A stretch of 64,000 bases of DNA from Microscilla marina ATCC 23134 (lineage in GTDB: Bacteria > Bacteroidota > Bacteroidia > Cytophagales > Microscillaceae): contig NZ_AAWS01000006.1 of the NCBI RefSeq assembly GCF_000169175.1, forward strand, positions 71,192 through 135,191, given 5' to 3'. A program made the position numbers and the translations under genes. How positions within the stretch are numbered: position 1 is the stretch's first letter; each line of letters opens with the position of its first letter. The notes below the pieces were generated by a model. That model made no database searches and was not told where the DNA came from. It saw only the letters and a list, made by a program, of their open reading frames with translations. Shown piece after piece: positions 18,639 through 56,914 of the stretch.

Positions 18639-21600
18639 CTATTTCTTTTTATTTATGTTGTCCACCTTTTGATTGGCTTCTTCCAGTACTTTTTTACGCC
18701 TTGTCTCTGCCGCTTCTATAATCTTGTTGGAGAGTTGTAGTTGTTTCTGAAATTCGTGCTCGGCTCTTGAGTAGGCTTTTTGTTTAATTTTGGTTCCTGC
18801 TTTTTCAGCCACTTTTTTAGCTGCAGCTTTTAGCAATGGGTTTTGTACCTCGTTGAGCTTAGCTGCAACAAATTTGTTGTACTCAGCATCTGCTTGCTTT
18901 TTGGCTTCGTCCAGTTTTTTGCGGGCTTCGGCTTTGGCAGCATCTACTTTTTGGCGAGCTTCAGCCATAATTGCATCTGCTCGTTTTTGGGCATCAGCCA
19001 AAACCTCTTTAGCCTTGTCTTTTCCTTCTTCTATTTTGTCATCTACCACTTTTTTTACCTGGTCTTGCACACTACTACCTATCACCTTGATTTTAGGATC
19101 ATTGACAGGTCCTGTAATTCCTAGTTTTACATTTACCCGGTCTGACTTATCAAAATTTACTCCGGCAAGACGGCTAATTGCTGTGGTGGCACTTTGCCCT
19201 ATTTTACCCTTAGGGGCATCTATGTCTACTTTAAAGTTTAAGGTACCATCTACATCATTGCTTCCACGTACATTCAGGTTATAATTGCCTACTTTCAGGT
19301 CAAAGGGTTGGTAAGTCATTTTACCATTTTTAATCTCCGTTTGAATATTCACACCTGCAATATTCAACTCTTTTAGTTCCTGAATACCGGTCACCATGCT
19401 TAAGTTTTTTAGCATTCCAGAACCTTTTACTTGGGTTTGGGTAAGTTTGATAGACCCAAAACCATTGAGGGAGTTATCAAGCAATGGGGTCATGTATTGC
19501 GATAAGCCTCCACTTACTTTCAGGTTGGTAGATAAAAACCCAGTAATGTTTTGTGCCATTGGTATCAGTTTTTTTACTACCGAAAAACTCGAATGAGCTT
19601 TACCAATTGACAAACGGTTAATGTTCATTTTAAAATCATACTTTGGGTGGGTCACATCATACGTGTCATAAGCACCACTCATAGTAAAACCACCTTCCAG
19701 CATATTAAACTTTAGGCCATTGAGCAACACTCTTCCATCCTTTACTATTATTTTACCTTTGATATTCTTAATCTCAAGGTCTTCATACTCTACTTCATCT
19801 ATTTGAGAGTTAAGTACAAAGTCAATATTCTTGGGCACCGTCACCAAGGTTACTTCATCGCTTACTGTAGTAGAACTTCCCTCAGAAGTAGTGGTGGTGG
19901 TAGTTACAGTAGTACTACCTGCCTTTCCAGTTTCCCCTTCAGTACTATCCATCCATTCGTCTACCACAAACCTGCGAGACTTGAACACTACATTTCCTTT
20001 GATTGTGTGCCCTTTAAAAACATAAGGAATATAGTTGGAAATGGTACCAGTCGCATGAATATCACTCTTACCCGCAAACCCGTGAAACTTTTCAAGGGTA
20101 ATCGTTTTTGGGGTAAACTTGGTAATAGCTTCTGTAATTTTAAAGCCTTGTGGCAAATCTTCTTTACTTACAAATGAAAACTTACTAATGTCTATCTCTC
20201 CACTAGTAGGCAACTTATCATACTGTTCTTTGTCTATGTAAGACATTTTGCCTGCCGTAGTAATATCTGCCCTGATGATTCCTGCAAGGCTCATTCCCTC
20301 TAAAGGGTAAATATGTGTTACCTTGGCTAAATCAATGACTCCTTTCATTTGGGCATCATACGTAATGTCGGCAAAGTTTACCACATTTGCCTTTACCGAA
20401 AAAGGTTTGTTGTCCAAGGTCCAGCTTAGGTCTTTCACGTGTACTTCAGAGTCTTTATAGTCGCCCGTAGTATTGGTTACCGATGCATCCAGGGTAAGTT
20501 TATCCAGTGCTTCCGGAAACTCCTTAGACTTAGCATACCCATTGGTTAAGGTCAGCTTGGCGGCAAGGTTGGGCATACTAGAGGCATTGTATACCCCTTT
20601 GGCGGTAGCATTTAAACCAAATAAACCCCTCACAATAATGTCAGGCATAGGAAACATCTTGCTCAAATCTGCCAGGTTGAGTTTTGCCACTACATTGGCA
20701 TCTATTTTAAAATTAGATAACCCCTCTACCCTGGCTTTGGCATCTATTGGGTTTCTGCCCAGGTCGAGGTGAAGCTTTTTAAGGTCTACTACTGTTTTTT
20801 CCAAGTCACTGGTTTTGTTACCGACAGACACATCTATATTGATATTGTTGACTGACGTAGGTAGGTCAGGGTATTGGAAAAGAGCATCAGAAACCTTAAA
20901 GTTAAGCCCAAAGGCAGGGTATTTTTTTTCGTTATAAGTTCCTTTTACAAAACCATCAAAGGCAAACTTACCTTCGGTTTTCATTTTCTGAAACTCTTCC
21001 ATCTCGGTATATACACCAGGCACCAACGATAAAATGTTTTTAAACTCGTTTTCTTTGGCAGCGTATTTAATATCCATATTGATATCATTGCCTACCATTT
21101 GGACAAAGCCATCGAACTTAAACACAAACTCATTGATTTTGATAGCATTTTGTTTGAATGTAAACTTATTCTTCTCCATATCCATATTCAGCGTCAGGTC
21201 AACATCTATGGACTTGTTCTCTACATAGCGTACATTTTCGTAGCCAAAATCAATTTTATCTACAGTAGTTTTAGTTTTGAGATCAAACACCGCTTGGGTA
21301 AAGTTGCCACTTCCTTTGTGGGTAAGTTTGGTAATGCTGGCATACATAGGGGTAGCAGCGTCGGCATACACAATGTCAGCATTTTTAATCTTCCAGCGTT
21401 TGATACCAACATTAAAGTTAGTTTGCGTAGTATCACTCTTGTCCTTTTCAGGTTTTTTCTCGTCTTTCTGGGTTGTGTCAGCCTTCATAATGTCCCAGTT
21501 GGCAGTACCATCTTTCAGTACTTTGGCATATATCTTAGGCGAATCAAGGTAGATTCCTCTCACCTGGATTTTGTCACTAAACAGCACACTCCATACGTCT

Positions 21601-23782: not shown

Positions 23783-23958
23783 TTTGATCATTAGTGATCT
23801 TTCATAAATAATTTGAGCCATTAAAGTGTATCTATTGCCCTCATTCTTCTCAAAAAAAAAGCTTCATAGCTTTGGCTATGCACCGTTTTTTTTGAATCGT
23901 CTGAGAACAATATATTTTCTTGAATTGGCACATCTTCTTTTTTCCAGATCACTTACAG
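23783..23958 (-). mobile_element. MITE-like element, family B, copy 1 (TIR TTAGTGATCT...AGATCACTTA; internal A9-hairpin-T8 module)
   Basis: ~99% identical over ~166 bp to reverse complement of 58733-58910; 10-11 bp terminal inverted repeats; no coding capacity (ORF 23826-24104 is spurious). Confidence 0.6.
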
Positions 23959-26022: not shown

Positions 26023-26697
26023 TTAGCTTTTAACATCTTTAGTCAACGCCTCTTCTACGATTTTAATACCAGATGAGGTTCCAATTCTATCTGCTCCAGC
26101 AATAATCATTTCCTGGGCTTTTTCATACGACCTGATTCCCCCAGAGGCCTTGATGCCTACAGTATCGGGCAAAATATCACGTAATAAACGAATATGTTCT
26201 ACCTTTGCGCCTTCAGGTGCATACCCCGTAGATGTTTTCATAAAATCAACCCCGGCATCTACACACACCTTGCTTGCTTCCCTTATTTCATGGTCATTCA
26301 GGTAAGCAGTTTCAAGAATGACCTTCATCATTGCTTCTTCGGCATGAATGACTTGAGAAAACCAAGCCATCTCCTGTTTAATCCACGCATAAGCGTTGCA
26401 CTTGATTGCAGAGATATTAATTACAATGTCTAACTCATTTACCCCTTCTTTTAAGGCGCTTTCTATCTCTTGCATTTTTACTTCGGCTCGTTGGTAGCCA
26501 AAAGGAAATCCTACCACAGTAACCAGTTGCACAGGGGCTTTGCCTAAATCACGCCTGGCTTTTTTTGCCCAATAAGGAGGTACACATATTCCTATAAAGT
26601 TATGAATAACGGCTTCTTCCACCAATGTTTCTATACTTTCGTAAGTCACGGTAGGTTTAAGGTTGGTATGTTCTATATACTCATTAATGTTTTGCAT
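26023..26697 (-). CDS. deoC: deoxyribose-phosphate aldolase
   Basis: 224 aa; Schiff-base region VGIKASGGIRS, DFMKTSTGY. Confidence 0.8.
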   Translation of the reverse strand: MQNINEYIEHTNLKPTVTYESIETLVEEAVIHNFIGICVPPYWAKKARRDLGKAPVQLVTVVGFPFGYQRAEVKMQEIESALKEGVNELDIVINISAIKCNAYAWIKQEMAWFSQVIHAEEAMMKVILETAYLNDHEIREASKVCVDAGVDFMKTSTGYAPEGAKVEHIRLLRDILPDTVGIKASGGIRSYEKAQEMIIAGADRIGTSSGIKIVEEALTKDVKS

Positions 26698-26926: not shown

Positions 26927-27219
26927 TTAAGGAACATGATCGCCCCGTAAACGGGATTTCGGGCATAGCCCTCAACAATAACCCCGATAAGAAATCGGGA
27001 CTTTGAAGCTGTCCGGTTTAGAACATATTAGCTTCGCAGAGCTTGAACTTCGTTCTGCGGTTATCTTTACTGACTTTCGTTACTTTTAGCCTTTGGCAGA
27101 GCTCGGCGCAGCAGGGCTGCAGCCATCGGTTTTCGCCGTAGCTATGGCTACGACTGCAAAAAGTGCCTCAGTCGAGTATACGCCCTCAATCTCGACACTT
27201 ATTTTGAATATGTTCCTAA
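26927..27219. mobile_element. MITE-like hairpin-rich element, family A, long copy (~293 bp; termini TTAAGGAACATG ... TATGTTCCTAA)
   Basis: Shares both arms (AAGGAACRTGATCGC...CTGTCCGGTTTAGAACA...CTGACTTTCGTTACTTTTA...GCAAAAAGTGCCTCAGTC...CCTCAATCTCGACACTTATTTTGAAYATGTTCCTAA) with 38653-38848; internal variable palindromes (cccgtaaacggg, cgcagagcttgaacttcgttctgcg, gtagctatggctac). Confidence 0.6.
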
Positions 27220-27524
27220 GGCGAAGGTAGGAGGTATACAGCAGTGACTTTTGGCGTGATTGATGCTGTTTTTAACATTTTATTGGAGCAAAAAAAGACT
27301 AACATCAAAATATTCTGTTTCCTAATGAGGAATTACCAAAAAAAGATTTTAAAATGAGGGCTCGTTAGAATTTAAATCAATTTTTAGCGTAATTTAGGAG
27401 TTGGTTGTCTTTATATTGTTGTAAAAAACAAAGCAAGGTTGAGCTGGTTTCTTGGGCAAAAAAATGACTTTCTGAGTTGATTAAAAAATGCCGTAAACCG
27501 TTGGTTAATAATTAATAATTACGA

Positions 27525-29231
27525 ATGTTTGACTATCAGAAAGTGTTTTTAGATCACTTTGATCCAAAAACATTTTTAAATTATCAATGGAATGTAAGAG
27601 TATCCCCTGGTGAGGTGTTGCCTTGGCAAGGGTTTTATACAGGACCTCTGGTTTTAAGAGCTTATGAGATAGAAGACCTATGCGAACTATTATTGGGAGT
27701 AGCTTTGTCTGACCTGGCACAGGTTGTCACCCAAGAGCTTGTTTCGGTTACTCAACCTTCTGATGCCAACACTTTTTTATTTTTACATTCTACTACCCCT
27801 GACCTTAATACTTTTTTAGACGATTTAAACAAGCTTCAACAAGAAGTACCAGGCTTAGACTACACTACTTATAAGGAGGTACAGTCGGTGTATTTTACCC
27901 AACCAGGTGACTTGTGTGTAGGCAGGGTAACTGCCTGGGAAACTGCCATTGAAACCGAAAAAGTGAAAGGTGCCTGTATTACAAACATCGATTACTATTA
28001 CCTTTCACAAGCTTTGATTGTATTGGCAAAACAACATCTTGAAACTCCAATACCTGTCATTGAACAGATAATTGATTTTTTGACAGCCCACCCCAATACA
28101 GTGGCAAGGGTATATGCACTTGAGCAGGAAATGCAAATATTTTTGGTATGGCTTAAGCGAATGGCAGAGCTTGACCAACTCAAAATTGACAGCAACTTAC
28201 CTGAGGTTTCACAACATTGGAACAATAAGAAAGTGCTGTACCCTTCGGTAAAACAAGCGCTGAGCATACCCACAGAAAAAATCAAGCAACAAACTGTAAA
28301 AGAAACATTGGCAAGTGAAGGACAACTTGCTGACGTTTACCAAAAACTCAAGGTAGAAATACCCCGTTTGCCTGGTTACATAATTAATCGAGAAAATTGT
28401 GATGAAGCTCATTTTGCCAAGCAAATACAACAGGCAGCACAGCTACTTCAAAGTCGCTATGGACTTACTACAGGTTGTTTTAAAGCCTGTAACTCAGGCG
28501 ATGGGGCACGCATTACTCCCAATATACCTTTAGCTAATGCTGCGCTACTGACCCAACTGGCAAATGAGGCTTACACCTACGGCGATGACTATTTACTCGA
28601 AGCTCATGTTACGTATTTAGAAACTGTAGTAAATGATTTTACCCTAAAAACTACCCCCTCAGCACATATACGCCAAGGCGAACAAGCTCCTGGTATTACC
28701 CTACAGTTTATGGAAGGCACTTCTTGGAAGGGAAACTTATACCTGGATGCCCAACAAGCCGCCAAATTGAATATATCAGCTGAGCATTATGCCTGCATTA
28801 CTCACACAATGCAGGCGTTGGTCAGTGGGTTTCGGCAACATATTGCTGGTTTAAATATTGCTGGAATCGACTTTGCTATTGGTCGTTTAGGTGGACATTT
28901 TGGCGATGAAATAATGTTGGGAGTACAAGACCCTAACCTCTCATTTAACGGAGCTGAATGTTTGCGTACATTTATGGATAAAAAAAACGTGCTTGCTCAA
29001 GGGCTATATGGAGCAACATTGGTCATACACCCTCATATTGATTTTACCCTGCCCGAATTTCGACAAATAGTGGCCGAATGTTTTCCTGAGGCAACTTCCA
29101 AAATGGAAGTCATTAGTATAGTTCCCGACTGTTGGGGTATGATTGCTACCACTGGCAAAACCCCACAAGAAGCAGTTGATCAACTGGTTGCTCTACGCAA
29201 TGTTTTGGCAACAAAAGATATTATTCACTAA
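27525..29231 (+). CDS. hypothetical protein (568 aa), no confident family assignment; weak ATP-grasp-like C-terminal half
   Basis: long ORF with good coding texture; segments GCFKACNSGDGARI and GIDFAIGRLGG are loosely reminiscent of ATP-grasp nucleotide-binding elements only. Confidence 0.55.
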   Translation: MFDYQKVFLDHFDPKTFLNYQWNVRVSPGEVLPWQGFYTGPLVLRAYEIEDLCELLLGVALSDLAQVVTQELVSVTQPSDANTFLFLHSTTPDLNTFLDDLNKLQQEVPGLDYTTYKEVQSVYFTQPGDLCVGRVTAWETAIETEKVKGACITNIDYYYLSQALIVLAKQHLETPIPVIEQIIDFLTAHPNTVARVYALEQEMQIFLVWLKRMAELDQLKIDSNLPEVSQHWNNKKVLYPSVKQALSIPTEKIKQQTVKETLASEGQLADVYQKLKVEIPRLPGYIINRENCDEAHFAKQIQQAAQLLQSRYGLTTGCFKACNSGDGARITPNIPLANAALLTQLANEAYTYGDDYLLEAHVTYLETVVNDFTLKTTPSAHIRQGEQAPGITLQFMEGTSWKGNLYLDAQQAAKLNISAEHYACITHTMQALVSGFRQHIAGLNIAGIDFAIGRLGGHFGDEIMLGVQDPNLSFNGAECLRTFMDKKNVLAQGLYGATLVIHPHIDFTLPEFRQIVAECFPEATSKMEVISIVPDCWGMIATTGKTPQEAVDQLVALRNVLATKDIIH

Positions 29232-29481
29232 ATCTTTAGGACACACACCATCAAACCTTCCTCATTCTTAACACTTATTCACCTCTTAAAAGCAAAATGC
29301 TTGGGAAGTAGGTCTGCTTAAAAAGCCTGCATACCAACTACAAAACCACCTCACCTATTTCTTCGGTTATCCTGCACCTAATGCTCTCAGGCTGGCAAAT
29401 TCAGCAAAATGGTAGTACCTTCGTGTCAAATACCTAAGCGCTTGTTTAAATCCATATTCTGATCCCCAAAAATAACAGATA

Positions 29482-30057
29482 ATGAAACCGTTTATTCTTA
29501 CCGAATTTATTTTTATACTTTTAAGTATCACTGGTTTTGTTCTAAAAATAGCCTTGGTGTTTTGGGGTACTCCAGTGCTCATTATTGGCTTACTGGGTTT
29601 ATCCCTCATTTATTTTAGGCAAGGCTTGCGCCCTGCTTTACTCAATGATCAGCCTACTGCTGCCAGTGACCGCTTTTTTATTCCTCTTTACAAGTTAGGG
29701 TACCTTTTATTTGCCATCAACACCTTGGGGGTACTGTTCAAAAGTATGCTTTGGGACACTCGTTTTTTAGGCTTTAGTATGTTTATACTCATGGCATACA
29801 CAATATTTATTGCTGCTCAGGTACTCAAAGGAAAATTTTTTTTCAAAAAACTCCTGATCAAATCGATCTTCATTGCTACACTGGCACTTACCTTTTATCA
29901 AACACCTTTGTCTAAGTTGATCCAACTCTATTACCGTGACCAACCTGAGTTTGCCCAAAAGTTTATTGAATACCGAGAAAACCCTCAGAACGAAGTCAAG
30001 AAAAAAAACTATCTTGAAGCACGCAAAAAGATGTTAAACAAAAATGCAAAAAAATAA
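29482..30057 (+). CDS. hypothetical integral membrane protein (4-5 TM)
   Basis: 191 aa, hydrophobic helices; overlaps next gene start by 14 nt. Confidence 0.5.
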   Translation: MKPFILTEFIFILLSITGFVLKIALVFWGTPVLIIGLLGLSLIYFRQGLRPALLNDQPTAASDRFFIPLYKLGYLLFAINTLGVLFKSMLWDTRFLGFSMFILMAYTIFIAAQVLKGKFFFKKLLIKSIFIATLALTFYQTPLSKLIQLYYRDQPEFAQKFIEYRENPQNEVKKKNYLEARKKMLNKNAKK

Positions 30058-31858
30058 CGTCCTCTTTTATCTACATCAAGTATTAGCTTATGCTCTACAT
30101 AGCCTTTTTGCCTCTTGGTATAAGCTAATTACCCTCTTGGCTCTTTTGTGGTTTGGAGCACTGTTGGGGTGTTCTACAAAAACAACCAACCAGTCTCCTG
30201 TAGACTCTACTAAAACATCAGGCAAGGCAGCTTTGCAAGTAGACCAGGAAATGACCCAAAAACTAAAGTATGAAGTAGTATACAAACACCAAGGGGGATT
30301 TGCCAGAGTTTTTTTCAAAGGGAAATATGGATTTATTGACCAACAAAACAAAGAAGTAATTAAGCCATCTTATGATTGGGCAAGCGATTTTGAAGGTGGT
30401 TTGGCTATTGTGAATATAAACAACCAGGAAGGACTCATCGATACCCAAGGAAAAATAGTAGTGCCTATTGAGTTTCGTAGCATAGATATGCCTTCAGAGG
30501 GCTTAGCAAGAATAAGCGTAGAAGTAAAAGACAACAAAGACTCTTTAGCCAAACACTACTTATGGGGGTTTGTAGATACTAAAGGAGAAATTGTAGTATC
30601 GGCAACATACGATTATGCTGAATCTTTCAAACAAGGGCTTGCCAAAGTAGCCCAAACCCGTAAAGACGAACAAGGTTATACCCAGAAGGTTTTTGGGCTG
30701 ATAGACCGGGAAGGGCAAGCTGTTACCTCTCTCAAATATGGATTTATAGGTGATTTTCACGAGGGGTTTACTTTGGTTAGCTTAGACAATGGGCAATATT
30801 GGGGATTTATAGACCGTCAAGGCAAAGAAATTACGCCTATACAATATGATGAGGTACGGGACTTTAAAAATAACCGGGCATTGGTGAAAAAAGATGGCTA
30901 CTGGGGGGCCATAGACTCTACTGGACGCATCAGGGTAAACTTGAAATATCCTACTTTAGAAGACTTTGAAGGGCGATTTGCTCGCTATTTTGTATACAAC
31001 AAATATGGTTTTATAGACCAACAAGGCAATACACTTACTCCAGCAAAATATGACCAAACCCTTGATTTTTTGCAAGGGTTTGTGCAAGTAAAAAAAGACG
31101 GTAAATGGGGAGTAATCAACCAATTTGGAAAAGAAATTACGGCATTGAAGTATGATACAGTGCTTGCCTTTAGCGAACAACGGGCACTTGTGGGACAAAA
31201 TGGCTGGTATGGCTTTATCAACACTCAAGGCAAAGTAGTGGTTCCGTTGGTTTATCCCGAAGCCAGTAGTTTTGACAAAGGCAAAGCAAAGGTTACCTTT
31301 TTTGTGCCTAACGCTCAAGGCAAACAAATACAACACAAAGGTTTTGTAAACAAGCAAGGGCAACTTCTTATACCAGTAAACGAACAGTTGTATATAGTAA
31401 AACAAGGACCAAAGTATGGTGTGATGTATAAAGACACCCTGCGTACTGCCATAGCGTACGATTTTATCGAGGCATTACCAAACAAAACAGCACTTGCTGC
31501 AATCAAAAATAAAAAAACAGGCATATTGAGCCTTACTGGTAAACCACTTACAGCGTTTAAGTACGACCATTATCAACCATTGTCACACAACTTACTATTG
31601 GTTACTGCCAATAATAAATGGGGCATTATCAATCACCAGGGTAAGGAGGTAACCTCCCTCAAATATGACCAAATAATGCCTTTTACCCAAAAACGGGCTA
31701 GAGTAAAAATAGATAGCTTATGGGGATATATTACTCCAAAGGGCAAAGAAATTACACCTATACAGTATGGTTATGCCGAAGACTTTTTTGATGGGAAAGC
31801 ATCGGTAAGTCGTAATAAAAAAGCAAGCGTGATAGACCTAGCTGGAAAGGAACAATAA
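30044..31858 (+). CDS. WG-containing (KWG/Leptospira-type) beta-repeat protein, membrane anchored
   Basis: 604 aa; >12 repeats of YGFID.QGK.VI.P.YD.A.DF.EG.A.V...KWG. Confidence 0.75.
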   Translation: MQKNNVLFYLHQVLAYALHSLFASWYKLITLLALLWFGALLGCSTKTTNQSPVDSTKTSGKAALQVDQEMTQKLKYEVVYKHQGGFARVFFKGKYGFIDQQNKEVIKPSYDWASDFEGGLAIVNINNQEGLIDTQGKIVVPIEFRSIDMPSEGLARISVEVKDNKDSLAKHYLWGFVDTKGEIVVSATYDYAESFKQGLAKVAQTRKDEQGYTQKVFGLIDREGQAVTSLKYGFIGDFHEGFTLVSLDNGQYWGFIDRQGKEITPIQYDEVRDFKNNRALVKKDGYWGAIDSTGRIRVNLKYPTLEDFEGRFARYFVYNKYGFIDQQGNTLTPAKYDQTLDFLQGFVQVKKDGKWGVINQFGKEITALKYDTVLAFSEQRALVGQNGWYGFINTQGKVVVPLVYPEASSFDKGKAKVTFFVPNAQGKQIQHKGFVNKQGQLLIPVNEQLYIVKQGPKYGVMYKDTLRTAIAYDFIEALPNKTALAAIKNKKTGILSLTGKPLTAFKYDHYQPLSHNLLLVTANNKWGIINHQGKEVTSLKYDQIMPFTQKRARVKIDSLWGYITPKGKEITPIQYGYAEDFFDGKASVSRNKKASVIDLAGKEQ

Positions 31859-32084
31859 AATGTAATACAAACAATTTACTCCATAAATACAACATCACAC
31901 TTCACCCTATACAACACACCTAAAGCCGCCTATAAAACATTGTATCCTATCAAAGTACCCAAAGTACTGCCCCATCTATGAACGCAAAATCCAGCTAAAA
32001 ACGAGAAATTATTACGAAAATGTTTCTAAATTGTGTAAACAACAGCACACATATCAGAAAAATACAGCACACGATCAATAAAAC

Positions 32085-34382
32085 ATGAATAATATAGATA
32101 GCAATCGTCAGGTAAACCCACTCACGTCTGAAGAATTTACCGGACTGAAAATTAAGCCTCCCAAAGAAGTAGCTGCTGGCGCAGAAGCAGTCAAATCTGC
32201 TCTTCACCACATTGCCAAAGAATCGGGGATATTTAGAGGAAATCGTATACTACTCAACCTTAATCAAAAGAAAGGGTTTGACTGCCCTGGCTGTGCCTGG
32301 CCTGACCCCAAAGTTCGTTCAGCTGTTGCCGAATACTGCGAAAATGGCGCAAAGGCAGTAGCCGAAGAAACTACTCTAGAGCGGGTAGATCCTGCCTTTT
32401 TTAAAAAATACAGTGTAGGCGAGCTTTCCCAAAAATCTGATTATTGGTTAGGCAAAAGCGGTCGTATTACTCACCCTATGGTGCTCAAAACCAATAGCCA
32501 ACATTATGAACCCATCGCCTGGGAGGAAGCGTTTGCTATGATTGCTCAAGAACTCAATGACTTGAGCTCTCCTGATGAGGCTGTTTTTTATACTTCGGGA
32601 CGCACCAGCAACGAAGCTGCTTTTATGTATCAGTTATTTGTCAGGCAGTTTGGTACCAACAATTTGCCCGACTGCTCTAATATGTGTCACGAATCTAGCG
32701 GGGCTGCATTGAGCGAAACCTTGGGTATAGGCAAAGGCTCGGTTACATTAGAAGACTTTAATCACTCACAGGTAATACTGGTCATAGGACAAAACCCTGG
32801 TACCAACCACCCTCGCATGTTATCGGCATTACAGGAGGCCAAACAAAAAGGAGCTAAAATAATACATGTCAATCCTTTGCCCGAAACTGGGCTTCAGGCA
32901 TTTAAAAACCCTCAAAAAATAAGTGGTTGGATTGGCAAAGCAGATGCCTTAAGTGACATTTTTTTGCAGGTTCGAATCAATGGTGACATGGCTTTGCTGA
33001 AAGGCTTGCTAAAACTCATGGCAAACCAAGAAGCTGTAAACAAAGGTAGTGTGTTTGATCGGGAATTTATCGATCAATACACTGAGGGGTTTGAAGAATT
33101 TTGGGCTGATATTCAATCGGTAGATTTAGAACAATGTATTCGCGAAAGCGGTATTGACCCAACCCAACTTGAGGAAGCTGCCCAACTGTTATGCAACAAT
33201 GACCGCATTATTGTTTGTTGGGCAATGGGGCTTACCCAACACCCCAACTCGGTGGCAATGATTAAACAGGTAGTAAATCTACTACTGGCCAAAGGTAGCA
33301 TAGGGAAGCAAGGAGCAGGTACTTGTCCGGTGCGTGGACATAGCAACGTACAAGGTGATCGTACAATGGGCATTTGGGAAAAACCTCCTCAAGATTTATT
33401 AGACCAATTAGAAAAGCACTTTGGTTTTAAGCCCCCTTCGGCGCATGGATATGATACAGTAGATGCGATCAAAGCAATGTATGAAGGTAAAGGTAAAGTT
33501 TTTTTTGCGATGGGGGGCAACTTTTTATCAGCTACTCCTGACACTGTATATACAGCCCAGGCATTGCAAAACTGTCACCTTACAGTACAAGTATCTACCA
33601 AGCTTAATCGTTCGCACCTGGTTACCGGAAAGCAAGCCCTGATACTGCCTTGTATGGGTAGAACTGAACTAGATGTGCAACAATCAGGAAAACAGTTTGT
33701 CACTGTAGAAAACTCTATGGGGGTAGTACACCAAAGTAGAGGACGTATCAAACCAGCTTCGCCACACTTATTGAGCGAACCTGCCATTATAGCACGGTTG
33801 GCACAAGCCACGTTTGAACAAAGTAAAGTAGATTGGCAAGCAATGATGCATGATTATGATGTAGTACGCGACCATATAGAAGCAACTATTGAAGGATTTG
33901 AGCAATACAATGAACGGGTAAGGCAGCTCAATGGTTTTAACTTGCCCAATGTGGCGCGTGAACGTAAATTTATACAGGGCAAAGCATACTTTACAGTACA
34001 CCCTATACCTAAAAATACCCTTGCCAACGATGAGTTTATTATGATGACTATCCGCAGCCATGACCAGTTTAACACAACTATTTATGGGCTTGACGATCGT
34101 TACAGGGGCATTTACAATGAACGTCGGGTAGTGCTTATGAACCAGGAAGATATGAAAGAAATGGGACTGGTAAGCAAACAACAGGTAAACCTAAAAGGTA
34201 ACTATGAGGGAGAGCAAAGAGTGGCACCAGCGTTTTTGGTAGTACCTTTTGACATTCCTAAAAGATGCATTGCTACTTATTTCCCAGAAGCCAACGTATT
34301 GGTACCAATTAATAGCGTAGCCAAGAAAAGTAATACGCCTACCTCTAAGTATGTAGTGGTGAGTATTGAAAAAAGCATCTAA
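32085..34382 (+). CDS. molybdopterin oxidoreductase, FdhF/YdeP family (formate-dehydrogenase-like alpha subunit)
   Basis: 765 aa; N-terminal Cys cluster GFDCPGCAWPDP, ...SNMCHESSG..., molybdopterin-binding and C-terminal MopB barrel-like regions. Confidence 0.75.
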   Translation: MNNIDSNRQVNPLTSEEFTGLKIKPPKEVAAGAEAVKSALHHIAKESGIFRGNRILLNLNQKKGFDCPGCAWPDPKVRSAVAEYCENGAKAVAEETTLERVDPAFFKKYSVGELSQKSDYWLGKSGRITHPMVLKTNSQHYEPIAWEEAFAMIAQELNDLSSPDEAVFYTSGRTSNEAAFMYQLFVRQFGTNNLPDCSNMCHESSGAALSETLGIGKGSVTLEDFNHSQVILVIGQNPGTNHPRMLSALQEAKQKGAKIIHVNPLPETGLQAFKNPQKISGWIGKADALSDIFLQVRINGDMALLKGLLKLMANQEAVNKGSVFDREFIDQYTEGFEEFWADIQSVDLEQCIRESGIDPTQLEEAAQLLCNNDRIIVCWAMGLTQHPNSVAMIKQVVNLLLAKGSIGKQGAGTCPVRGHSNVQGDRTMGIWEKPPQDLLDQLEKHFGFKPPSAHGYDTVDAIKAMYEGKGKVFFAMGGNFLSATPDTVYTAQALQNCHLTVQVSTKLNRSHLVTGKQALILPCMGRTELDVQQSGKQFVTVENSMGVVHQSRGRIKPASPHLLSEPAIIARLAQATFEQSKVDWQAMMHDYDVVRDHIEATIEGFEQYNERVRQLNGFNLPNVARERKFIQGKAYFTVHPIPKNTLANDEFIMMTIRSHDQFNTTIYGLDDRYRGIYNERRVVLMNQEDMKEMGLVSKQQVNLKGNYEGEQRVAPAFLVVPFDIPKRCIATYFPEANVLVPINSVAKKSNTPTSKYVVVSIEKSI

Positions 34383-34503
34383 AAAAAATCATAAAAAACT
34401 CTGCTAAATATATTAACTTAGCAGAGTTAAATTTACTGTTGATCAATAGCAAAAATATAGCTGAATAGAAATCACTGGAGTAATGCTGTTCAACTGTATT
34501 TTA

Positions 34504-34665
34504 TTAATAGTAGTAATAATAAATAGCACCTCCACTGGTAGTATTATTACCTGCATCTGAAGACCCACCAGGATCTTCTGGGCAAGGGCATTTACCGCCT
34601 GAAGTTAGTGCTAACTGTGACTCTGACAGCTCACAATCTGTGAATGACTCGAATGAATTTTTCAT
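34504..34665 (-). CDS. candidate 53-aa precursor peptide with double-glycine-type leader (bacteriocin/RiPP-like)
   Basis: Not in ORF track (<60 aa). Manual translation: MKNSFESFTDCELSESQLALTSGG|KCPCPEDPGGSSDAGNNTTSGGAIYYYYY; leader fits L-S-x-x-(E/Q)-L-x-x-(I/T)-x-G-G; Cys/Gly/Ser-rich core with penta-Tyr C-terminus; 5' end overlaps putative start of divergent regulator. Confidence 0.35.
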   Translation of the reverse strand: MKNSFESFTDCELSESQLALTSGGKCPCPEDPGGSSDAGNNTTSGGAIYYYYY

Positions 34666-36287
34666 CTTTAAGCAACGAATTAAAAGTGTACAATATAAAT
34701 GGTGTATTTGTATTATTGGGTGTTTTATCAGGGTTCTTTACCTCAGCTAAAGCACAATCTGTAAATACATCTGAAATTTACAAAAAAAATTACGAAAAAG
34801 CTCGAAAACTCAGACACAAATACCCGGATAGTACAAAAATATTCGCCAACCGAGCTTTATTATCTGCCAGCAATAATGATCAAAGGGCTGAGGTATATTG
34901 CTTGCTTGGAAAAATGGCTAAAGCGCAAGAGTGGAACAATACGGCTATTCATTACTATCAACAATCGCTTAAGCTTTATACCAACGAAACAAGTAAAAAC
35001 AAAGTCAGACTGGCAATGATAGCTCCCTATCGTCGTCAGAAGAAGTATAACACTGCTTTAAGGTTAGCTAGGTGGGTAACAAAACATGCAGAAAAAAAAG
35101 GGGAACTGGGCAATCTCAAGAACAGTTATTCGTCGTTGGGGAATGTGTTTTATAACCTAAGCCAGGCAGACACTTTTTCTATCAAATGGATTGACTCTTC
35201 TTTACACTATCATCGCAAATCAATTGAGTTAAGGAAAAAATACTTCCCTCGCACTCAAGCTATGGCGTATTATAATTCTAGTTTTGCTTATGAAGCAATT
35301 TCGCCCGATTCTGCCATACATTATACACAATTAGCACTGCAACAACCTAACCTTGAGACTTACCATAAAGCTTTGTACAACATTCGGTTGGCGCAAATTT
35401 ATTACAAAAAAAAGGCGTTTAAATTTGGTAAATACTACTTGAATAAAGCTCAACAAATACACTATCAAGACCTGAATTTGCAAAACATGTATTGGTTTTA
35501 CAAAGCTATGATTGCTTTGTTTCAGCAAAACATTAGGGAGGTCAAGCAAGGATTCAATAAATATGATTCAGTCATTAGTTTGCTTCGTAACAACGCACAA
35601 AACATGGCTGACCAAAAAGGACTCACAGAAATGATCAGGGAAGATTACCAGGACGCCTGCAATGCTGCCATGCAAATGTACAAACGTACTAAAAATGAGG
35701 TGTATCTGGGGCTAATCAATCAATACAAAATCAAAAAACAGCAAGCAAGTAAAAAATACATTCGTACACATTTGCTTATAGAAAAACAAGACAGCCTACT
35801 ATTGAGTAAAGTATACTCAACCGCCGAACTGAGAATGACAAAACCTACTCTTGAAACCCAACTAAGTAACGAAAATACACAACGATGGATTTTTTGGGGC
35901 ATTATGATCATCCTCATCATGTTGGGCGGTATAGTTTGGTGGTATCAATTGCAGCAAAAACAGGCAATGCCTCCTCCTGCAGAACAACCGCAACTAATGA
36001 TTACCAACCAAAAGTTAAATACCAAACTATTGAGTTCTTTGGCAGAGCAAAACGAGTTTGAAAAAATATTATCATTGCTCAACACCCACCTGGGGAACGA
36101 TACCCTGAAACATTATACTCAAAACCTACCCAATGATGTCACATTGAGTGCACAAGAAAAAGTATACCTTAAACTACTGTCAGAAGGTTTTAGTCAGTGG
36201 GAGATTGGGCAAATGCTTAACAAGAACAAGCGAAGTATTATAGAGTGGGATAAAAAACTTAAGCAAAAGCTGAACAAAGTTCAATAA
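34644..36287 (+). CDS. TPR-repeat sensor with single TM segment and C-terminal LuxR-type HTH
   Basis: 547 aa; N-terminal hydrophobic segment, TPR-like repeats, TM (WIFWGIMIILIMLGGIVWWY), C-terminal LSAQEKVYLKLLSEGFSQWEIGQMLNKNKRSI. Confidence 0.65.
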   Translation: MTRMNFSSLSNELKVYNINGVFVLLGVLSGFFTSAKAQSVNTSEIYKKNYEKARKLRHKYPDSTKIFANRALLSASNNDQRAEVYCLLGKMAKAQEWNNTAIHYYQQSLKLYTNETSKNKVRLAMIAPYRRQKKYNTALRLARWVTKHAEKKGELGNLKNSYSSLGNVFYNLSQADTFSIKWIDSSLHYHRKSIELRKKYFPRTQAMAYYNSSFAYEAISPDSAIHYTQLALQQPNLETYHKALYNIRLAQIYYKKKAFKFGKYYLNKAQQIHYQDLNLQNMYWFYKAMIALFQQNIREVKQGFNKYDSVISLLRNNAQNMADQKGLTEMIREDYQDACNAAMQMYKRTKNEVYLGLINQYKIKKQQASKKYIRTHLLIEKQDSLLLSKVYSTAELRMTKPTLETQLSNENTQRWIFWGIMIILIMLGGIVWWYQLQQKQAMPPPAEQPQLMITNQKLNTKLLSSLAEQNEFEKILSLLNTHLGNDTLKHYTQNLPNDVTLSAQEKVYLKLLSEGFSQWEIGQMLNKNKRSIIEWDKKLKQKLNKVQ

Positions 36288-36826
36288 AATTGATTTTATT
36301 TTTCTTTGTGGAAAAAATAGGTAATTTTGGTTTTAATCCTTGTAAATTACAACCTTGCTCAATTCACCCCTGCTGTGCTTTTATACCTGTTGATTTATTA
36401 TTGCATACAACAGGTAATTAAGCCTTACCTAATATCAAATAGCTTTAAAATAATGATGACGGGTAAGACCAATACTTGCTCTATACAGCTATTTTGTATG
36501 CTGTAAAAAAAAATAATTTATCAACGGTGTATTGTTGCTTGCTGTCAAACTTACTTGCTCGAAGCTACCAAATGTCTAGAGAGCAAGAGACTCACCATAT
36601 AAAAGAAAGATCATCAGCAATAATACAAGAATAAAAAATAGCGTAAAGCACTAAATTACATGTGGCTCATGCCAACAAAAACAAGTGAGATGTTCTACAA
36701 TTTCACTTTTTTTCGTTATTTGGAACAAAAAATATTAAAAATTGCAATATAAGCACTTGATTTTGAAGTAATTATTTAATTTCTTACGAAGAATATTTGC
36801 GATAATTTTTTTTAATAAATTAAAGG

Positions 36827-37036
36827 ATGATTAAAATGAAAAAGTTTGATACCCTAGAGGATGCTTTCCAACATTTTTTGGACAATGTTTACCCTAAACT
36901 AGCACCTGAAAGAAAGATTAAATATAAGGATGCTCGTTATGACTTTCTTAAAAGAAAATCTATCTCTCATAACAAAATAGAGTCTATTTTAGGGGACTAT
37001 GCAACCATTAAAATGGAAATTACATTCGAAGACTAA
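36827..37036 (+). CDS. small hypothetical protein (69 aa)
   Basis: ORF followed by palindrome tgtcaattgaca and a hairpin+T-run (~37094-37133); in AT-rich low-density region. Confidence 0.35.
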   Translation: MIKMKKFDTLEDAFQHFLDNVYPKLAPERKIKYKDARYDFLKRKSISHNKIESILGDYATIKMEITFED

Positions 37037-37563
37037 ACACCTTTGTACAATCTCTACTTATGACATAAAAATATTTGTCAATTGACAGACAAAAAGCCCG
37101 CTTATATATAAGAGTGGGCTTTTCTTTTGCAACCTTCCTTAACCCACCCCAGGCACCACATTCACTTTTTAACTATTCAACCAATTTCCCTTCAGTATTT
37201 TGAAAAAAAACTATCTCCTTTCATTGCATACAGACAAAGCAGTTGAGTATCTGAGGCTTTGCCACAAAAGGTAAATACAAACTTTATTCAAAGTTAAAAC
37301 AGGTGAGACACTGTTATGCTGTAAAAATCAACGGAAAGCAAGCCATTAATACAGAAAAACTTAAGAAAAGAGCAAACAGATAGGTTTAAACAACTGTTAA
37401 AGTATATAATTATAAGTAGCAGCAAGTAATTAACTATAGGCGACAGGCAAGGGTAACTCACTCATAATATGGCTGTTACACCTACTCATTAGGTATATTT
37501 AATTCTACCTCGGTACTTAAATCATTCATAGATATAAAACCAACTCTTATTTTTTTTGATATT

Positions 37564-38034
37564 ATGGCACAACCCAGTACATTTTTGATAGAGGCTTTAC
37601 GCAAAACAGCGGATAAACTTGCCAAAGGGGCTCCCTACCAATGGGGGCACATGGGCAGTTGCAACTGTGGCAATCTGGCGCAAGAAATTACCCAGCTTAG
37701 TAAAGCCAAAATACACGAATATGCTTTGCAAACCCGTTTTGGTGATTGGTCGGAACAAACCTCAGAGTTTTGTCCCACCAGCAACTTGCCTATGGACATA
37801 GTCATCAGCGAGATGCTCAATGCCGGGCTTACCCGTACCGATCTTAAACACCTTGAGAAACTATCGGACAAACAAGTGCTCAAGAGATTGCCTGCCAACA
37901 ACCGCTACCTCATGCACAACAAACGCGACGATGTAGTAAAATACTTGCGTACCTGGGCAGATTTGCTTGAAGAACAGTTGCTCGAAAAAATAAACATCAA
38001 GAATGTAGTAGTGCCTGCTAAAGTGTTGGTATAA
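37564..38034 (+). CDS. hypothetical protein (156 aa)
   Basis: ORF with reasonable coding texture; no motif recognised. Confidence 0.45.
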   Translation: MAQPSTFLIEALRKTADKLAKGAPYQWGHMGSCNCGNLAQEITQLSKAKIHEYALQTRFGDWSEQTSEFCPTSNLPMDIVISEMLNAGLTRTDLKHLEKLSDKQVLKRLPANNRYLMHNKRDDVVKYLRTWADLLEEQLLEKINIKNVVVPAKVLV

Positions 38035-38219
38035 GGTTAGGGAGCAAACAAGAAATAACCTACCCATTTTGTAGCTGCTCTTTTGCCCCAAGACTTTGTT
38101 ACTTTTTGCAGCCATAGCTCTGCTATGACTTTAAAAAGTGCCGCGTCTCAGAATAAAATAGCTAGCAAAAATCCAGTATCCTATTTTTAATTGCTCCCTT
38201 ACTTTGTTGTATGGGTTGA

Positions 38220-38546
38220 TTGACTTACACCACATTTATTATTAAATTTCATTACGAACTAATGAGGATATATATGAAAAAAATATTAAACGGCATCGAT
38301 CAACTCATCAACCACCCCATCTACCAATTAACTGTGAGCATTTCATTAATTGCAGTCAGTATCTATGACATGGTGCATGTGGTTGTCAAAGATTTTATTC
38401 ACTTACGTTTACACAAAGATCATTTCATTATTTTGATAGGTGTACTCATGCTTATCAATGCTCTTAACACGTTGTTTAAGGGCATTAGAGGGATAGAGAA
38501 AGACATAGAAGAGGAAGAAGAACACACTACTACAAGTGCTAAATAA
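38220..38546 (+). CDS. small membrane protein with acidic C-terminal tail (hypothetical)
   Basis: 108 aa, two hydrophobic helices, EEEEEH tail; start may be internal (MKKILNG). Confidence 0.4.
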   Translation: MTYTTFIIKFHYELMRIYMKKILNGIDQLINHPIYQLTVSISLIAVSIYDMVHVVVKDFIHLRLHKDHFIILIGVLMLINALNTLFKGIRGIEKDIEEEEEHTTTSAK

Positions 38547-38652
38547 CGTTAAAATAGATAGAATGTGCTCAATGCTTTGTAACTTTGCATTCTATATCTA
38601 TTTTTTCAGACTTGCCTGTAGCTGCACCCTGTTAGATGCGGGTAATGTTTGA

Positions 38653-38848
38653 TTAAGGAACGTGATCGCAATAACTGTCCGGTTTAGAACACATCCTCTT
38701 TCCTGACTTTCGTTACTTTTATTGTCCGTGGTACCATCCCACGGTCTGGCTCAACATCCCCCGGATGTTGCCTTGCCCGCAAAAAGTGCCTCAGTCAGCC
38801 TTGAGTTTATGACCTCAATCTCGACACTTATTTTGAACATGTTCCTAA
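38653..38848. mobile_element. MITE-like element, family A, short copy (~196 bp)
   Basis: Termini TTAAGGAACGTG ... CATGTTCCTAA; arms collinear with 26927-27219; internal palindromes ccgtggtaccatcccacgg and catcccccggatg; ends 12 nt before methyltransferase start. Confidence 0.6.
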
Positions 38849-38860
38849 ACATTATTTACT

Positions 38861-39631
38861 ATGTTTAAGACTACCGAAATAACATCTAACGAGATAGTTT
38901 CTGACAATCCTGTTCACCAAAGATTGACTTTTGCCTACGAAGAGGCTATCAAATATGTAAGTGGCAATTTGCTGGAAATAGGCTGTGGCTTTGGTCGTGG
39001 GCTGGAAACTTTGCAAAAAGTATGTGACCAGTATACTGCTATAGACAAAAATGATAAGTTGATAGCCTGGCTATCAGAACAATACAAAGATTTTACTTTT
39101 CTTTCGCAAAACATCCCTCCTTTTACTGGGCTACAAGACAATACTTATGATTTTGTGGTTTCTTTTCAAGTAATCGAGCACATCAAAGACGATCATTTGT
39201 ATTTGAAGGAAATCAACCGGGTGCTGAAGCCAGGTGGCAAGGCTTTGATCACTACTCCTAATATTAAATATTCGCTTACGCGTAACCCTTGGCATATTCG
39301 TGAATATACTGCACAAGAGCTTGCCACGCTGATGGGGAAGTATTTTAGTCAGGTAGATACCCACGGAGTAAAAGGCAATGAAAAGGTGATGGGTTATTAT
39401 AACCAAAATAAAAAATCGGTAGAAAAGATTACTCGTTGGGATGTTTTTAACCTACAGTATCGTTTGCCACGCCAGGTACTACAGGTACCTTACGATATTT
39501 TGAATAGAATGAACCGTAAGAAGTTGCAGAAGCAGGATAATTCGCTGGTAGCACAAATCAATTTTGATGACTATTACCTAAGCGATCGCCCCGACGAGAG
39601 TTTAGATTTGTTTTATATAGCTACTAAATAG
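38861..39631 (+). CDS. class I SAM-dependent methyltransferase (small-molecule type)
   Basis: 256 aa; motif I LLEIGCGFGRG, motif post-I DFVVSF, LKPGGKALITTPN. Confidence 0.75.
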   Translation: MFKTTEITSNEIVSDNPVHQRLTFAYEEAIKYVSGNLLEIGCGFGRGLETLQKVCDQYTAIDKNDKLIAWLSEQYKDFTFLSQNIPPFTGLQDNTYDFVVSFQVIEHIKDDHLYLKEINRVLKPGGKALITTPNIKYSLTRNPWHIREYTAQELATLMGKYFSQVDTHGVKGNEKVMGYYNQNKKSVEKITRWDVFNLQYRLPRQVLQVPYDILNRMNRKKLQKQDNSLVAQINFDDYYLSDRPDESLDLFYIATK

Positions 39632-56721: not shown

Positions 56722-56914
56722 CATACTCAATTACAGTAATTTAAAAACACTTACACATATCTTCAATTTTTCTATACATACGTCCAAGTCTCCCCATTTT
56801 TTTTCCTCTTCCTTTGCATCGCTAACCTACTGAGGCTACAATCATAACTTATGGAGCTTCAGGTATTAGTGTTGAATTATTTAACATTTATTAACAAACA
56901 AAACATAATTCATT

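What the first reader, a model, noticed from the sequence alone, without database searches (positions are those of the whole stretch)
26927..38848. Second MITE-like family: hairpin-rich element with AGGAACATG termini in two intergenic sites (293-bp and 196-bp variants)
The two copies (26927-27219 and 38653-38848) share collinear conserved arms. The shared blocks are TTAAGGAACRTGATCGC, CTGTCCGGTTTAGAACA, CTGACTTTCGTTACTTTTA, GCAAAAAGTGCCTCAGTC and CCTCAATCTCGACACTTATTTTGAAYATGTTCCTAA, and they end in imperfect terminal inverted repeats. The interior is a variable module of GC-rich perfect palindromes that differs between copies, for example cccgtaaacggg, cgcagagc..gttctgcg and gtagctatggctac in one copy against ccgtggtac..cccacgg and catcccccggatg in the other. 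This modular layout (conserved arms, swappable hairpins) recalls REP/BIME or Correia-like elements. It could also be a structured small RNA gene family. The longer copy fills most of the 830-bp gap after deoC. The shorter copy ends 12 nt before the SAM-methyltransferase start codon, so it could supply that gene's promoter or 5'UTR.
Basis: seen in the sequence. Interest (0 to 1): 0.6.

Follow-up and report, generated by a model that had tools for sequence, protein, structure and literature searches.

The report
Recently inserted miniature transposon (MITE) family
The two look-alike intergenic sequences are copies of a small non-coding "jumping" DNA element (a MITE) that inserted recently into a Microscilla genome. 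This is a well-known kind of bacterial repeat, so the finding is real but ordinary.

Summary
Two collinear copies lie on the + strand (cores 26931-27216, 286 nt; 38657-38845, 189 nt). They share five exact blocks found nowhere else in the window. The MITE reading is confirmed by filled-versus-empty sites. In the syntenic contig of a ~95%-identical genome (uncultured Microscilla sp., GCA_947493425.1) both sites are empty. Two more distant relatives also lack copy B. The breakpoints fall exactly at the inverted termini GGAACRTG...CAYRTTCC. The single TAA of the empty site is duplicated on both sides of the insert. A third full copy elsewhere in the Microscilla sp. genome is flanked by TTA/TTA, so the target duplication is 3 bp (TWA). 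That duplication and the GGAA-type tip point to mobilisation in trans by an IS5-family-like (PIF/Harbinger-like) DDE transposase. The partner transposase was not found. There is no Rfam match, no compensatory base change, and equal fold stability on both strands, so nothing supports an RNA gene. REP/BIME and Correia membership fail on defining features. One feature stays unexplained: copies differ by whole GC-rich hairpin-sized indels while the shared blocks are nearly identical. Verdict: a new member of a known kind, low to moderate interest.

The parts
26928..26930 (.). Left target-site duplication (TAA) of copy A
   Evidence: The empty site in L030 reads GGTTGTTAAGCCAAAGG with a single TAA. 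The window has TAA on both sides of the insert.
26931..27216 (+). Copy A core (286 nt), the long variant of the MITE
   Evidence: It carries all five shared blocks. A profile match covers 26931-27216 with E = 1.4e-83. It is absent from the orthologous site in L030.
27217..27219 (.). Right target-site duplication (TAA) of copy A
26931..26943 (+). 5' terminal inverted repeat tip / block 1 (GGAACATGATCGC) of copy A
26944..27008 (+). Three-hairpin module (65 nt where copy B has only AATAA). It is shared with the L014 copy and sits inside what is the 27-nt inverted repeat in copy B.
27009..27025 (+). Block 2 (CTGTCCGGTTTAGAACA), copy A
27026..27069 (+). Variable segment with a copy-A-only hairpin (CGCAGAGC..GTTCTGCG). 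Copy B and L014 have 11 nt here.
27070..27088 (+). Block 3 (CTGACTTTCGTTACTTTTA), copy A
   Evidence: In L014 this block is split by a 27-nt hairpin insert.
27089..27155 (+). Central variable region of copy A (67 nt, GC-rich hairpins, not alignable with copy B)
27156..27173 (+). Block 4 (GCAAAAAGTGCCTCAGTC), copy A
27184..27216 (+). Block 5 / 3' terminal inverted repeat (CCTCAATCTCGACACTTATTTTGAATATGTTCC), copy A
38654..38656 (.). Left target-site duplication (TAA) of copy B
   Evidence: The empty sites in L026, L027 and L029 read TGATTAAACATT with one TAA. The BLAST blocks end at 38656 and restart at 38846, with a 3-nt overlap in L030.
38657..38845 (+). Copy B core (189 nt), the short variant. 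It has a 27-nt imperfect terminal inverted repeat and folds as one long rod.
38846..38848 (.). Right target-site duplication (TAA) of copy B
38861..39631 (+). SAM-dependent methyltransferase gene. Copy B sits 12 nt upstream of its ATG. The gene is intact.
26023..26697 (-). deoC. Copy A lies 230 nt upstream of its start codon.
27525..29231 (+). 568-aa conserved hypothetical gene. Copy A lies 306 nt upstream and on the same strand.

Best explanation
The two sequences are copies of a non-autonomous DNA transposon (a MITE) of a Microscilla genome (Bacteroidota, Cytophagales). Each copy is a 189-286 nt non-coding element bounded by the inverted termini GGAACRTG...CAYRTTCC and flanked by a duplicated 3-bp target (TAA here, TTA in another copy). 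Shown: both window copies are precise insertions relative to close relatives, so the family has transposed since these lineages split at ~95% nucleotide identity. Inferred: a DDE transposase encoded elsewhere in the genome binds the two termini, makes a 3-nt staggered cut at a TWA target and integrates the element, and gap repair gives the duplication. The TWA 3-bp duplication and the GGAA-type tip point to an IS5-family-like (PIF/Harbinger-like) enzyme. The strong rod-like fold is a consequence of the inverted-repeat architecture, not evidence of an RNA gene. The copies differ mainly by gain or loss of GC-rich hairpin-sized segments. One such block lies only 13 nt from the tip and has been carried to at least two loci, so transposition tolerates it.
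For: (1) The five blocks occur only in the two copies; chance expectation is 0-0.2. (2) Filled versus empty for copy B: window TGAT-TAA-[GGAACGTG...CATGTTCC]-TAA-ACATTAT against TGATTAAACATTAT in L026 (methyltransferase 98% aa identical), L027 (93%) and L029 (85%). (3) Filled versus empty for copy A: window GTTTGT-TAA-[...]-TAA-GGCGAAGG against GGTTGTTAAGCCAAAGG in L030. (4) Window and L030 are 94.8% identical over 20.6 kb, and the alignment blocks break exactly at the element ends. (5) A third full copy at an unrelated locus of GCA_947493425.1 (L014) is flanked by TTA/TTA, and a 3' half copy (L002) has TAA on its right. (6) Copy B has a 27-nt inverted repeat at 78%, and all copies share a perfect 8-nt tip. 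(7) There is no coding capacity: ORFs are at most 48 aa, and a profile of their translations found no protein in 5.8 billion. (8) The tip GGAACGTG matches the E. coli IS5 ends GGAAGGTG at 7 of 8 positions. Canonical PIF/Harbinger elements, relatives of the IS5 family, make 3-bp duplications (PMC12730594). IS5-family-derived MITEs are already described in Bacteroidota (P. gingivalis, PMC4596501). (9) Other TIR-bounded indels, three with TAA/TTA flanks, separate the same two genomes within 21 kb, so such elements have been active in this lineage. (10) Contigs assembled from the window's own sequencing run end inside both copies, as expected for repeated DNA.
Against: No autonomous element with matching termini was found in the window or in about 150 kb of related loci, so the mobilising enzyme is inferred only from the duplication and the tip. 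Known copy number is small: 3 full copies and 1 partial in two genomes. Only two loci of the species-representative genome carry the exact 18-mer, and two metagenome scans and one viral scan found nothing. E. coli IS5 itself makes 4-bp duplications (my own knowledge), so the tip match does not place the element in a specific IS5 subgroup. The near-identity of the blocks combined with whole-segment replacement between them is not explained by simple neutral decay of a MITE.
Confidence: 0.87

Rival explanations
1. The element is a structured non-coding RNA gene family: a conserved core helix with variable peripheral hairpins, transcribed from the + strand.
For: The folds are strong and better than shuffled controls: copy B -60 kcal/mol, z = -5.1; copy A -98 kcal/mol, z = -3.9. 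All four copies lie on the same strand as the next downstream gene. Three of four single-sided changes in block-to-block pairs keep a pair through G-U on the + strand.
Against: No Rfam family matched at gathering or permissive thresholds. The reverse strand folds equally well (-65 kcal/mol, z = -4.9), as expected of a DNA inverted repeat. Of 33 block-to-block pairs, none shows a compensatory change and one is broken. In L014 the stem of one interior hairpin has decayed. No promoter- or terminator-like signal was found inside either copy. Precise insertion with a target duplication explains the spread of copies without invoking an RNA function.
Confidence: 0.04
2. The element is REP/BIME-like: clusters of extragenic palindromes spread by a RAYT (Y1 HUH) transposase.
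For: It is intergenic and rich in GC hairpins, and its layout is modular.
Against: The unit that moved is the whole 189-286 nt element, bounded by inverted termini and a 3-bp duplication. REPs leave no such duplication (my own knowledge). The individual hairpins occur nowhere outside the element in the window or related loci. No hairpin-sized indels outside MITEs were found in 21 kb of aligned synteny.
Confidence: 0.02
3. The sequences are ancestral intergenic DNA that was deleted in the relatives, not inserted in the window's lineage.
For: Palindromic DNA is prone to deletion.
Against: The copy B site is empty in three genomes of graded divergence (98, 93 and 85% methyltransferase identity). 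This would need three identical precise deletions that each restore a single TAA. The same element occurs at unrelated loci in the relative (L014, L002).
Confidence: 0.03
4. This is an add-on that does not exclude the MITE reading. Copy B has been co-opted as the promoter or 5' leader of the methyltransferase gene. Its 3' inverted repeat carries TTATTTTG, a one-mismatch match to the Bacteroidota -7 box TAnnTTTG, 25 nt before the ATG.
For: The insertion lies directly downstream of the native -7-like box AATGTTTG (38644-38651) and 12 nt upstream of the ATG, so it separates the gene from its probable promoter. The gene is nevertheless intact. The same TTATTTTG box faces a downstream gene in all four copies. 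P. gingivalis MITEs have shown promoter activity (PMC4596501).
Against: Both boxes are imperfect, and neither has a -33 TTG at the right spacing. In the other copies the distance to the downstream gene is 40-300 nt. The insertion may simply be too recent for the gene to have decayed. There are no expression data.
Confidence: 0.2

Closest known systems
Bacterial MITEs defined by filled/empty sites, e.g. Nezha of Anabaena/Nostoc (Delihas 2011 review, PMC3184786)
   Same: Both are short, non-coding and intergenic. Both have terminal inverted repeats, flanking direct repeats and a very stable predicted fold. In both, recent mobility is shown by filled versus empty orthologous sites in close relatives.
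   Different: The host phylum differs (Bacteroidota, Microscilla) and the sequences are unrelated. For Nezha an IS with matching termini is known (ISNpu3). Here none was found.
IS5-family-derived MITEs of Porphyromonas gingivalis (BrickBuilt, MITEPgRS/464, MITE239/293, MITE700; PMC4596501)
   Same: They are Bacteroidota MITEs that are exclusively intergenic, show internal modular variation (a trapped repeat array in BrickBuilt), and have possible promoter effects on neighbouring genes.
   Different: The P. gingivalis termini (GAGACC.., ACGTCA..) differ from GGAACRTG, and their duplications are irregular. The variable interior here consists of GC-rich hairpins, not tandem repeats.
Tourist-type MITEs / PIF-Harbinger elements of eukaryotes and the related prokaryotic IS5 family (PMC12730594; subgroup details from my own knowledge of ISfinder)
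   Same: Both make a 3-bp TWA (TAA/TTA) target duplication. The termini start with GG, and 7 of 8 tip bases match the E. coli IS5 ends.
   Different: Membership cannot be established without the transposase. E. coli IS5 itself duplicates 4 bp.
Correia/NEMIS elements of Neisseria; ERIC and BOX elements
   Same: They are small intergenic inverted-repeat elements with length variants caused by internal insertions or deletions.
   Different: Correia duplicates TA, whereas this element duplicates 3 bp. There is no sequence similarity. ERIC and BOX lack clear target duplications (my own knowledge).

Membership tests
MITE (non-autonomous DNA transposon) | Short (about 50-1000 bp) with no transposase coding capacity | tested here: met
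   The cores are 189-286 nt. ORFs are at most 48 aa, and a profile of their translations found no protein homologue.
MITE (non-autonomous DNA transposon) | Terminal inverted repeats | tested here: met
   The 8-nt tip GGAACRTG/CAYRTTCC is present in all full copies. Copy B has 27 nt at 78% complementarity.
MITE (non-autonomous DNA transposon) | Target-site duplication flanking the termini | tested here: met
   Copies A and B have TAA/TAA, and the empty sites hold a single TAA. The L014 copy has TTA/TTA.
MITE (non-autonomous DNA transposon) | Several dispersed copies at unrelated loci | tested here: met
   There are two copies in the window, plus one full and one half copy on other contigs of GCA_947493425.1. 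The total per genome is unknown.
MITE (non-autonomous DNA transposon) | Presence/absence polymorphism at orthologous sites | tested here: met
   The copy A site is empty in L030. The copy B site is empty in L026, L027 and L029.
MITE (non-autonomous DNA transposon) | An autonomous IS with matching termini in the same or a related genome | not testable with these tools
   No GGAACRTG-type termini around a transposase gene were found in the window or in about 150 kb of related loci.
IS5 family / PIF-Harbinger-type derivative | Sequence-specific 3-bp (TNA/TWA) target duplication | tested here: met
   TAA was seen at three copies and TTA at one. That this is typical of the family comes from PMC12730594 and my own knowledge.
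IS5 family / PIF-Harbinger-type derivative | Termini resembling those of family members | tested here: inconclusive
   GGAACGTG against IS5 GGAAGGTG is a 7 of 8 match. This is too short to be decisive.
IS5 family / PIF-Harbinger-type derivative | Mobilisation by a DDE transposase of that family | not testable with these tools
   No partner was identified.
REP/BIME | A 20-40 nt palindromic unit dispersed on its own, without target duplication | tested here: not met
   The whole 189-286 nt element moved with a 3-bp duplication. The hairpin modules are absent outside the element.
REP/BIME | An associated RAYT transposase | not tested
   No search for a RAYT gene was made.
Correia/NEMIS | TA target duplication | tested here: not met
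   A TA duplication does not fit the junctions. Only a 3-bp TAA or TTA does.
Any Rfam RNA family | Covariance-model match at or near the gathering score | tested here: not met
   There were no hits at gathering thresholds across the window, and only chance-level hits (E >= 0.59) around copy A.
Structured RNA (unnamed) | Compensatory base changes that support the helices | tested here: inconclusive
   With 3-4 sequences, 33 block-to-block pairs gave 4 variable pairs, 0 compensatory changes and 1 broken pair.

The most novel reading that the evidence does not exclude
The GC-rich hairpin segments are themselves units that are gained, lost or exchanged inside the MITE. These are the 27-33 nt modules, two of which share the same length and the frame CCCnG..CGGGACTnnGAnn. 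This would be a second tier of nested mini-insertions or a hairpin-specific recombination process, comparable to small dispersed repeats nested in cyanobacterial MITEs or GC clusters in yeast mitochondria. The MITE ends would still work with such cargo 13 nt from the tip. In addition, the element's 3' end may supply a -7-type promoter box to downstream genes.
Probability: 0.12. Interest if true: 0.5.

Novelty: new member of a known kind. Interest (0 to 1): 0.25.

Why it matters
It adds an undescribed, recently active MITE family to a poorly studied marine gliding bacterium. It also shows that small non-autonomous transposons account for most large intergenic differences between two ~95%-identical Microscilla genomes: five TIR-bounded insertions in 21 kb. 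For annotation, it explains why short-read contigs break at these sites, and it marks a methyltransferase whose promoter region has been split by an insertion. It does not change any general concept. The only open point of wider interest is how copies keep near-identical arms while swapping whole hairpin segments.

Tried and rejected
1. Rfam at gathering thresholds on the whole window, and at permissive thresholds around copy A, gave nothing meaningful.
2. A genome-collection scan with the 18-mer GCAAAAAGTGCCTCAGTC gave 23 loci. Only two, both from uncultured Microscilla sp. GCA_947493425.1, carry the element. The other 21 have the 18-mer alone, which is about the chance expectation.
3. Two metagenome scans (CTCGACACTTATTTTGAAYATG, and AAAAGTGCCTCAGTC..CTCGACAC with a gap) and one viral scan found nothing.
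4. I tried to find more copies through spurious ORFs. A profile of the + strand ORF translations found no hit in 5.8 billion proteins. An exact look-up of a 33-aa - strand ORF was not on record.
5. BLAST searches of both copies against plasmids found no match.
6. BLASTN with word size 7, and an nhmmer profile of the three full copies, were run against the window and all fetched loci. They found no further copies.
7. A search for termini of a parent IS in all held sequence found none.
8. A sigma-70 promoter and terminator scan found nothing inside the copies. The tool does not model Bacteroidota promoters. My own TAnnTTTG scan gave only one-mismatch boxes without a -33 partner.
9. My recollection that Chunjie was an IS5-type MITE with a 3-bp duplication was wrong. 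It has 9-bp direct repeats (PMC3184786), so I dropped it as a comparator.
10. The Siguier et al. IS review could not be retrieved. The IS5-subgroup duplication lengths therefore rest on my own knowledge.

Full report
**Observation**

They are collinear and both lie on the + strand. Each of the five blocks occurs exactly twice in the 64-kb window, even when three mismatches are allowed. The blocks are TTAAGGAACRTGATCGC, CTGTCCGGTTTAGAACA, CTGACTTTCGTTACTTTTA, GCAAAAAGTGCCTCAGTC and CCTCAATCTCGACACTTATTTTGAAYATGTTCCTAA. Dinucleotide-preserving shuffles give 0-0.2 matches. The listed palindromes are present. The elements are 48-51% G+C in a window of 38% G+C.

**Identity of the genome**

- A scan of 185,579 species-representative genomes with the 18-mer of block 4 returned 23 loci.
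- Only two carry other parts of the element. Both come from "uncultured Microscilla sp." GCA_947493425.1; the rest are chance 18-mer hits.
- The methyltransferase next to copy B and the 568-aa protein next to copy A have their best homologues (98% and 92% identity) on one contig of that assembly.
- That contig is syntenic with window ~17.3-39.7 kb at 94.8% nucleotide identity over 20.6 kb.
- The window is therefore from a Microscilla (Bacteroidota, Cytophagales, Microscillaceae) close to that assembly.

**Decisive test: filled versus empty sites**

Copy B:
- The window reads TGAT-TAA-[GGAACGTG ... CATGTTCC]-TAA-ACATTAT.
- The orthologous site reads TGATTAAACATTAT in the Microscilla sp. contig (L026).
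- Two more distant relatives have near-identical empty sites with a single TAA or TAG: L027 (93% methyltransferase identity) and L029 (85%).

Copy A:
- The window reads GTTTGT-TAA-[GGAACATG ... TATGTTCC]-TAA-GGCGAAGG.
- The Microscilla sp. contig (L030) reads GGTTGTTAAGCCAAAGG.

BLAST blocks between the two genomes end at 38656 and restart at 38846, with a 3-nt overlap in the partner. A global alignment lists both elements as clean window-only segments.

Both copies are therefore precise insertions. They are bounded by the inverted tips GGAACRTG/CAYRTTCC and flanked by a duplicated 3-bp target. Three independent empty genomes for copy B make deletion in the relatives very unlikely.

**Further copies**

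- In GCA_947493425.1 a full copy lies at an unrelated locus (L014 3434-3709, - strand) between a TPR-protein gene and a signal-peptide gene. It is flanked by TTA on both sides.
- A 3' half copy (L002) ends in ...GTTCC-TAA.
- The duplication is thus 3 bp with sequence TWA.
- A profile of the three full copies found nothing more in the window or in about 150 kb of related loci.
- Metagenome, viral, plasmid and spurious-ORF searches found nothing.
- The family seems confined to a narrow Microscilla clade, and its copy number per genome is unknown.
- Contigs assembled from the window's own sequencing run stop inside both copies, at window 26959 and 38822. This fits repeated DNA, but I treat it only as a hint.

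**Anatomy**

- Copy B (189 nt) is the plainest form. It has a 27-nt imperfect terminal inverted repeat (78% complementary).
- Blocks 1-3 on the left arm pair with blocks 5-4 on the right arm, giving one long rod.
- The fold is -60 kcal/mol (z = -5.1) on the + strand and -65 kcal/mol (z = -4.9) on the - strand. Equal stability on both strands is what a DNA palindrome gives.

Copy A (286 nt) and the L014 copy (276 nt) differ from copy B mostly by whole GC-rich hairpin-sized segments:
- Segments of 33 nt and 27 nt lie directly after GATCGC, only 13 nt from the tip. Both are shared by copy A and L014.
- A ~33-nt hairpin is present only in copy A.
- A 27-nt hairpin that splits block 3 is present only in L014.
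- The central region is unalignable between A and B/L014.

The shared blocks differ at only five positions across four copies. The hairpin modules occur nowhere outside the element. No hairpin-sized indels occur outside MITEs in the 21-kb alignment. The high ratio of indels to substitutions is the one feature I cannot explain.

**Mechanism**

Shown: precise insertion, a 3-bp TWA duplication, inverted termini, no coding capacity (ORFs at most 48 aa), and mobility since a ~5% nucleotide divergence.

Inferred: mobilisation in trans by a DDE transposase that binds both termini and makes a 3-nt staggered cut at TWA. The most likely enzyme family is IS5-like, for these reasons:
- Canonical PIF/Harbinger elements, the eukaryotic relatives of the IS5 family, make 3-bp duplications (PMC12730594).
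- The tip GGAACGTG matches the E. coli IS5 ends GGAAGGTG at 7 of 8 positions.
- IS5-family ISs are abundant in Cytophagales-related bacteria (PMC3196728).
- IS5-derived MITEs are known in Bacteroidota (PMC4596501).

No partner IS was found in the sequence available, so this step stays an inference. I put it at about 0.5; the MITE reading itself I put at about 0.87.

**Rivals**

- *RNA gene.* There is no Rfam match. Of 33 block-to-block pairs, none shows a compensatory change and one is broken. One interior hairpin stem has decayed in L014. Both strands fold equally well. No promoter- or terminator-like signals lie inside the copies. With 3-4 sequences covariation is uninformative, but nothing calls for this reading.
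- *REP/BIME and Correia.* Defining features fail: a 3-bp duplication is present, and the hairpins are not dispersed on their own.
- *Ancestral DNA deleted in relatives.* This is contradicted by three empty outgroups and by copies at unrelated loci.

**Possible consequence for neighbouring genes**

- Copy B landed right after a -7-like box (AATGTTTG, 38644-38651) and 12 nt before the methyltransferase ATG.
- It therefore either becomes a 190-nt structured leader or replaces the promoter.
- Its 3' end carries TTATTTTG, a one-mismatch match to the Bacteroidota TAnnTTTG box, 25 nt before the ATG. The same box faces a downstream gene in all four copies.
- Neither box has a properly spaced -33 TTG, and there are no expression data. 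I rate promoter donation at about 0.2.

**Comparison and novelty**

The element meets every testable MITE criterion, as listed in reviews (PMC3184786, PMC4596501, PMC10969869). It works like Nezha-type or Tourist-type MITEs. No paper in the held library links Microscilla with MITEs. It is a new member of a known kind. Interest is low to moderate (0.25).

The most novel reading still open is that the hairpin segments are themselves exchangeable or inserted units nested in the MITE. I give this about 0.12. It needs the full copy set from a complete genome.

Noticed in passing
window 23794-23946: A third MITE-like insertion. The core is about 147 nt (23797-23943) with termini GTGATCT.../...AGATCAC, flanked by TTA/TTA. 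The orthologous site in L030 (~6474) is empty and reads gatcaTTAcagtat. It has the same 3-bp TWA duplication as the family studied.
   Followed up: partly
L030 9677-9970 (empty site in window ~27500-27505, gccgTAAaccg): A different hairpin-rich MITE ('family 2', ~291 nt) is present in Microscilla sp. GCA_947493425.1 but absent from the window. Its termini are GAGTATGTTTAAA and its duplication is TAA. Its tip resembles the 3' terminus of the studied family (GAGTATGTTTAAAAA against GGAACATGTTCAAAA). It also holds an inner block CTGACTTCGTTAATTTTT like block 3, which suggests related families served by related transposases.
   Followed up: partly
L030 ~19790-20115 (window ~37128): An element of about 320 nt with a perfect 16-bp inverted terminal repeat (ACTTGTTTAAGGTTTT) is present in the Microscilla sp. 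contig and absent from the window. The flanks have diverged too far to read the duplication.
   Followed up: no
window 29374 / L030 11865-12031; window 37237-37307 and 37413-37517: Further intergenic indels of 167, 71 and 105 nt separate the two ~95%-identical genomes. They were not examined for termini. Nearly all large differences in the 21-kb synteny are intergenic insertions.
   Followed up: no
window ~38549-38606: The stretch GTTAAAATAGATAGAATGTGCTCAATGCTTTGTAACTTTGCATTCTATATCTATTTTTT lies downstream of ORF 38220-38546. It is almost invariant across four genomes whose coding regions differ by up to 15% at the protein level. By eye it holds an imperfect hairpin (AGATAGAATG..CATTCTATATCT) followed by a T-run. 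It could be a terminator or some other conserved non-coding signal. The terminator scan did not call it.
   Followed up: partly
window 27525-29231: A 568-aa protein has no Pfam domain but has full-length homologues (35-49% identity) scattered across Bacteroidota, Acidobacteriota, Streptomyces, Mycobacterium and Vibrio. Some sources label these 'ATP-grasp domain-containing'. In relatives it sits next to formyltransferase, DAO-type oxidase and methyltransferase genes that are missing here.
   Followed up: no
window 60300-62100: A long array of 69-nt periodic repeats (15 or more copies at ~60-70% identity) looks like a leucine-rich-repeat-type coding repeat.
   Followed up: no
window 44700-48750 and 52800-56820: A diverged tandem duplication spaced ~8.08 kb apart (70-78% identity) includes histidine-kinase-like coding sequence.
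   Followed up: no
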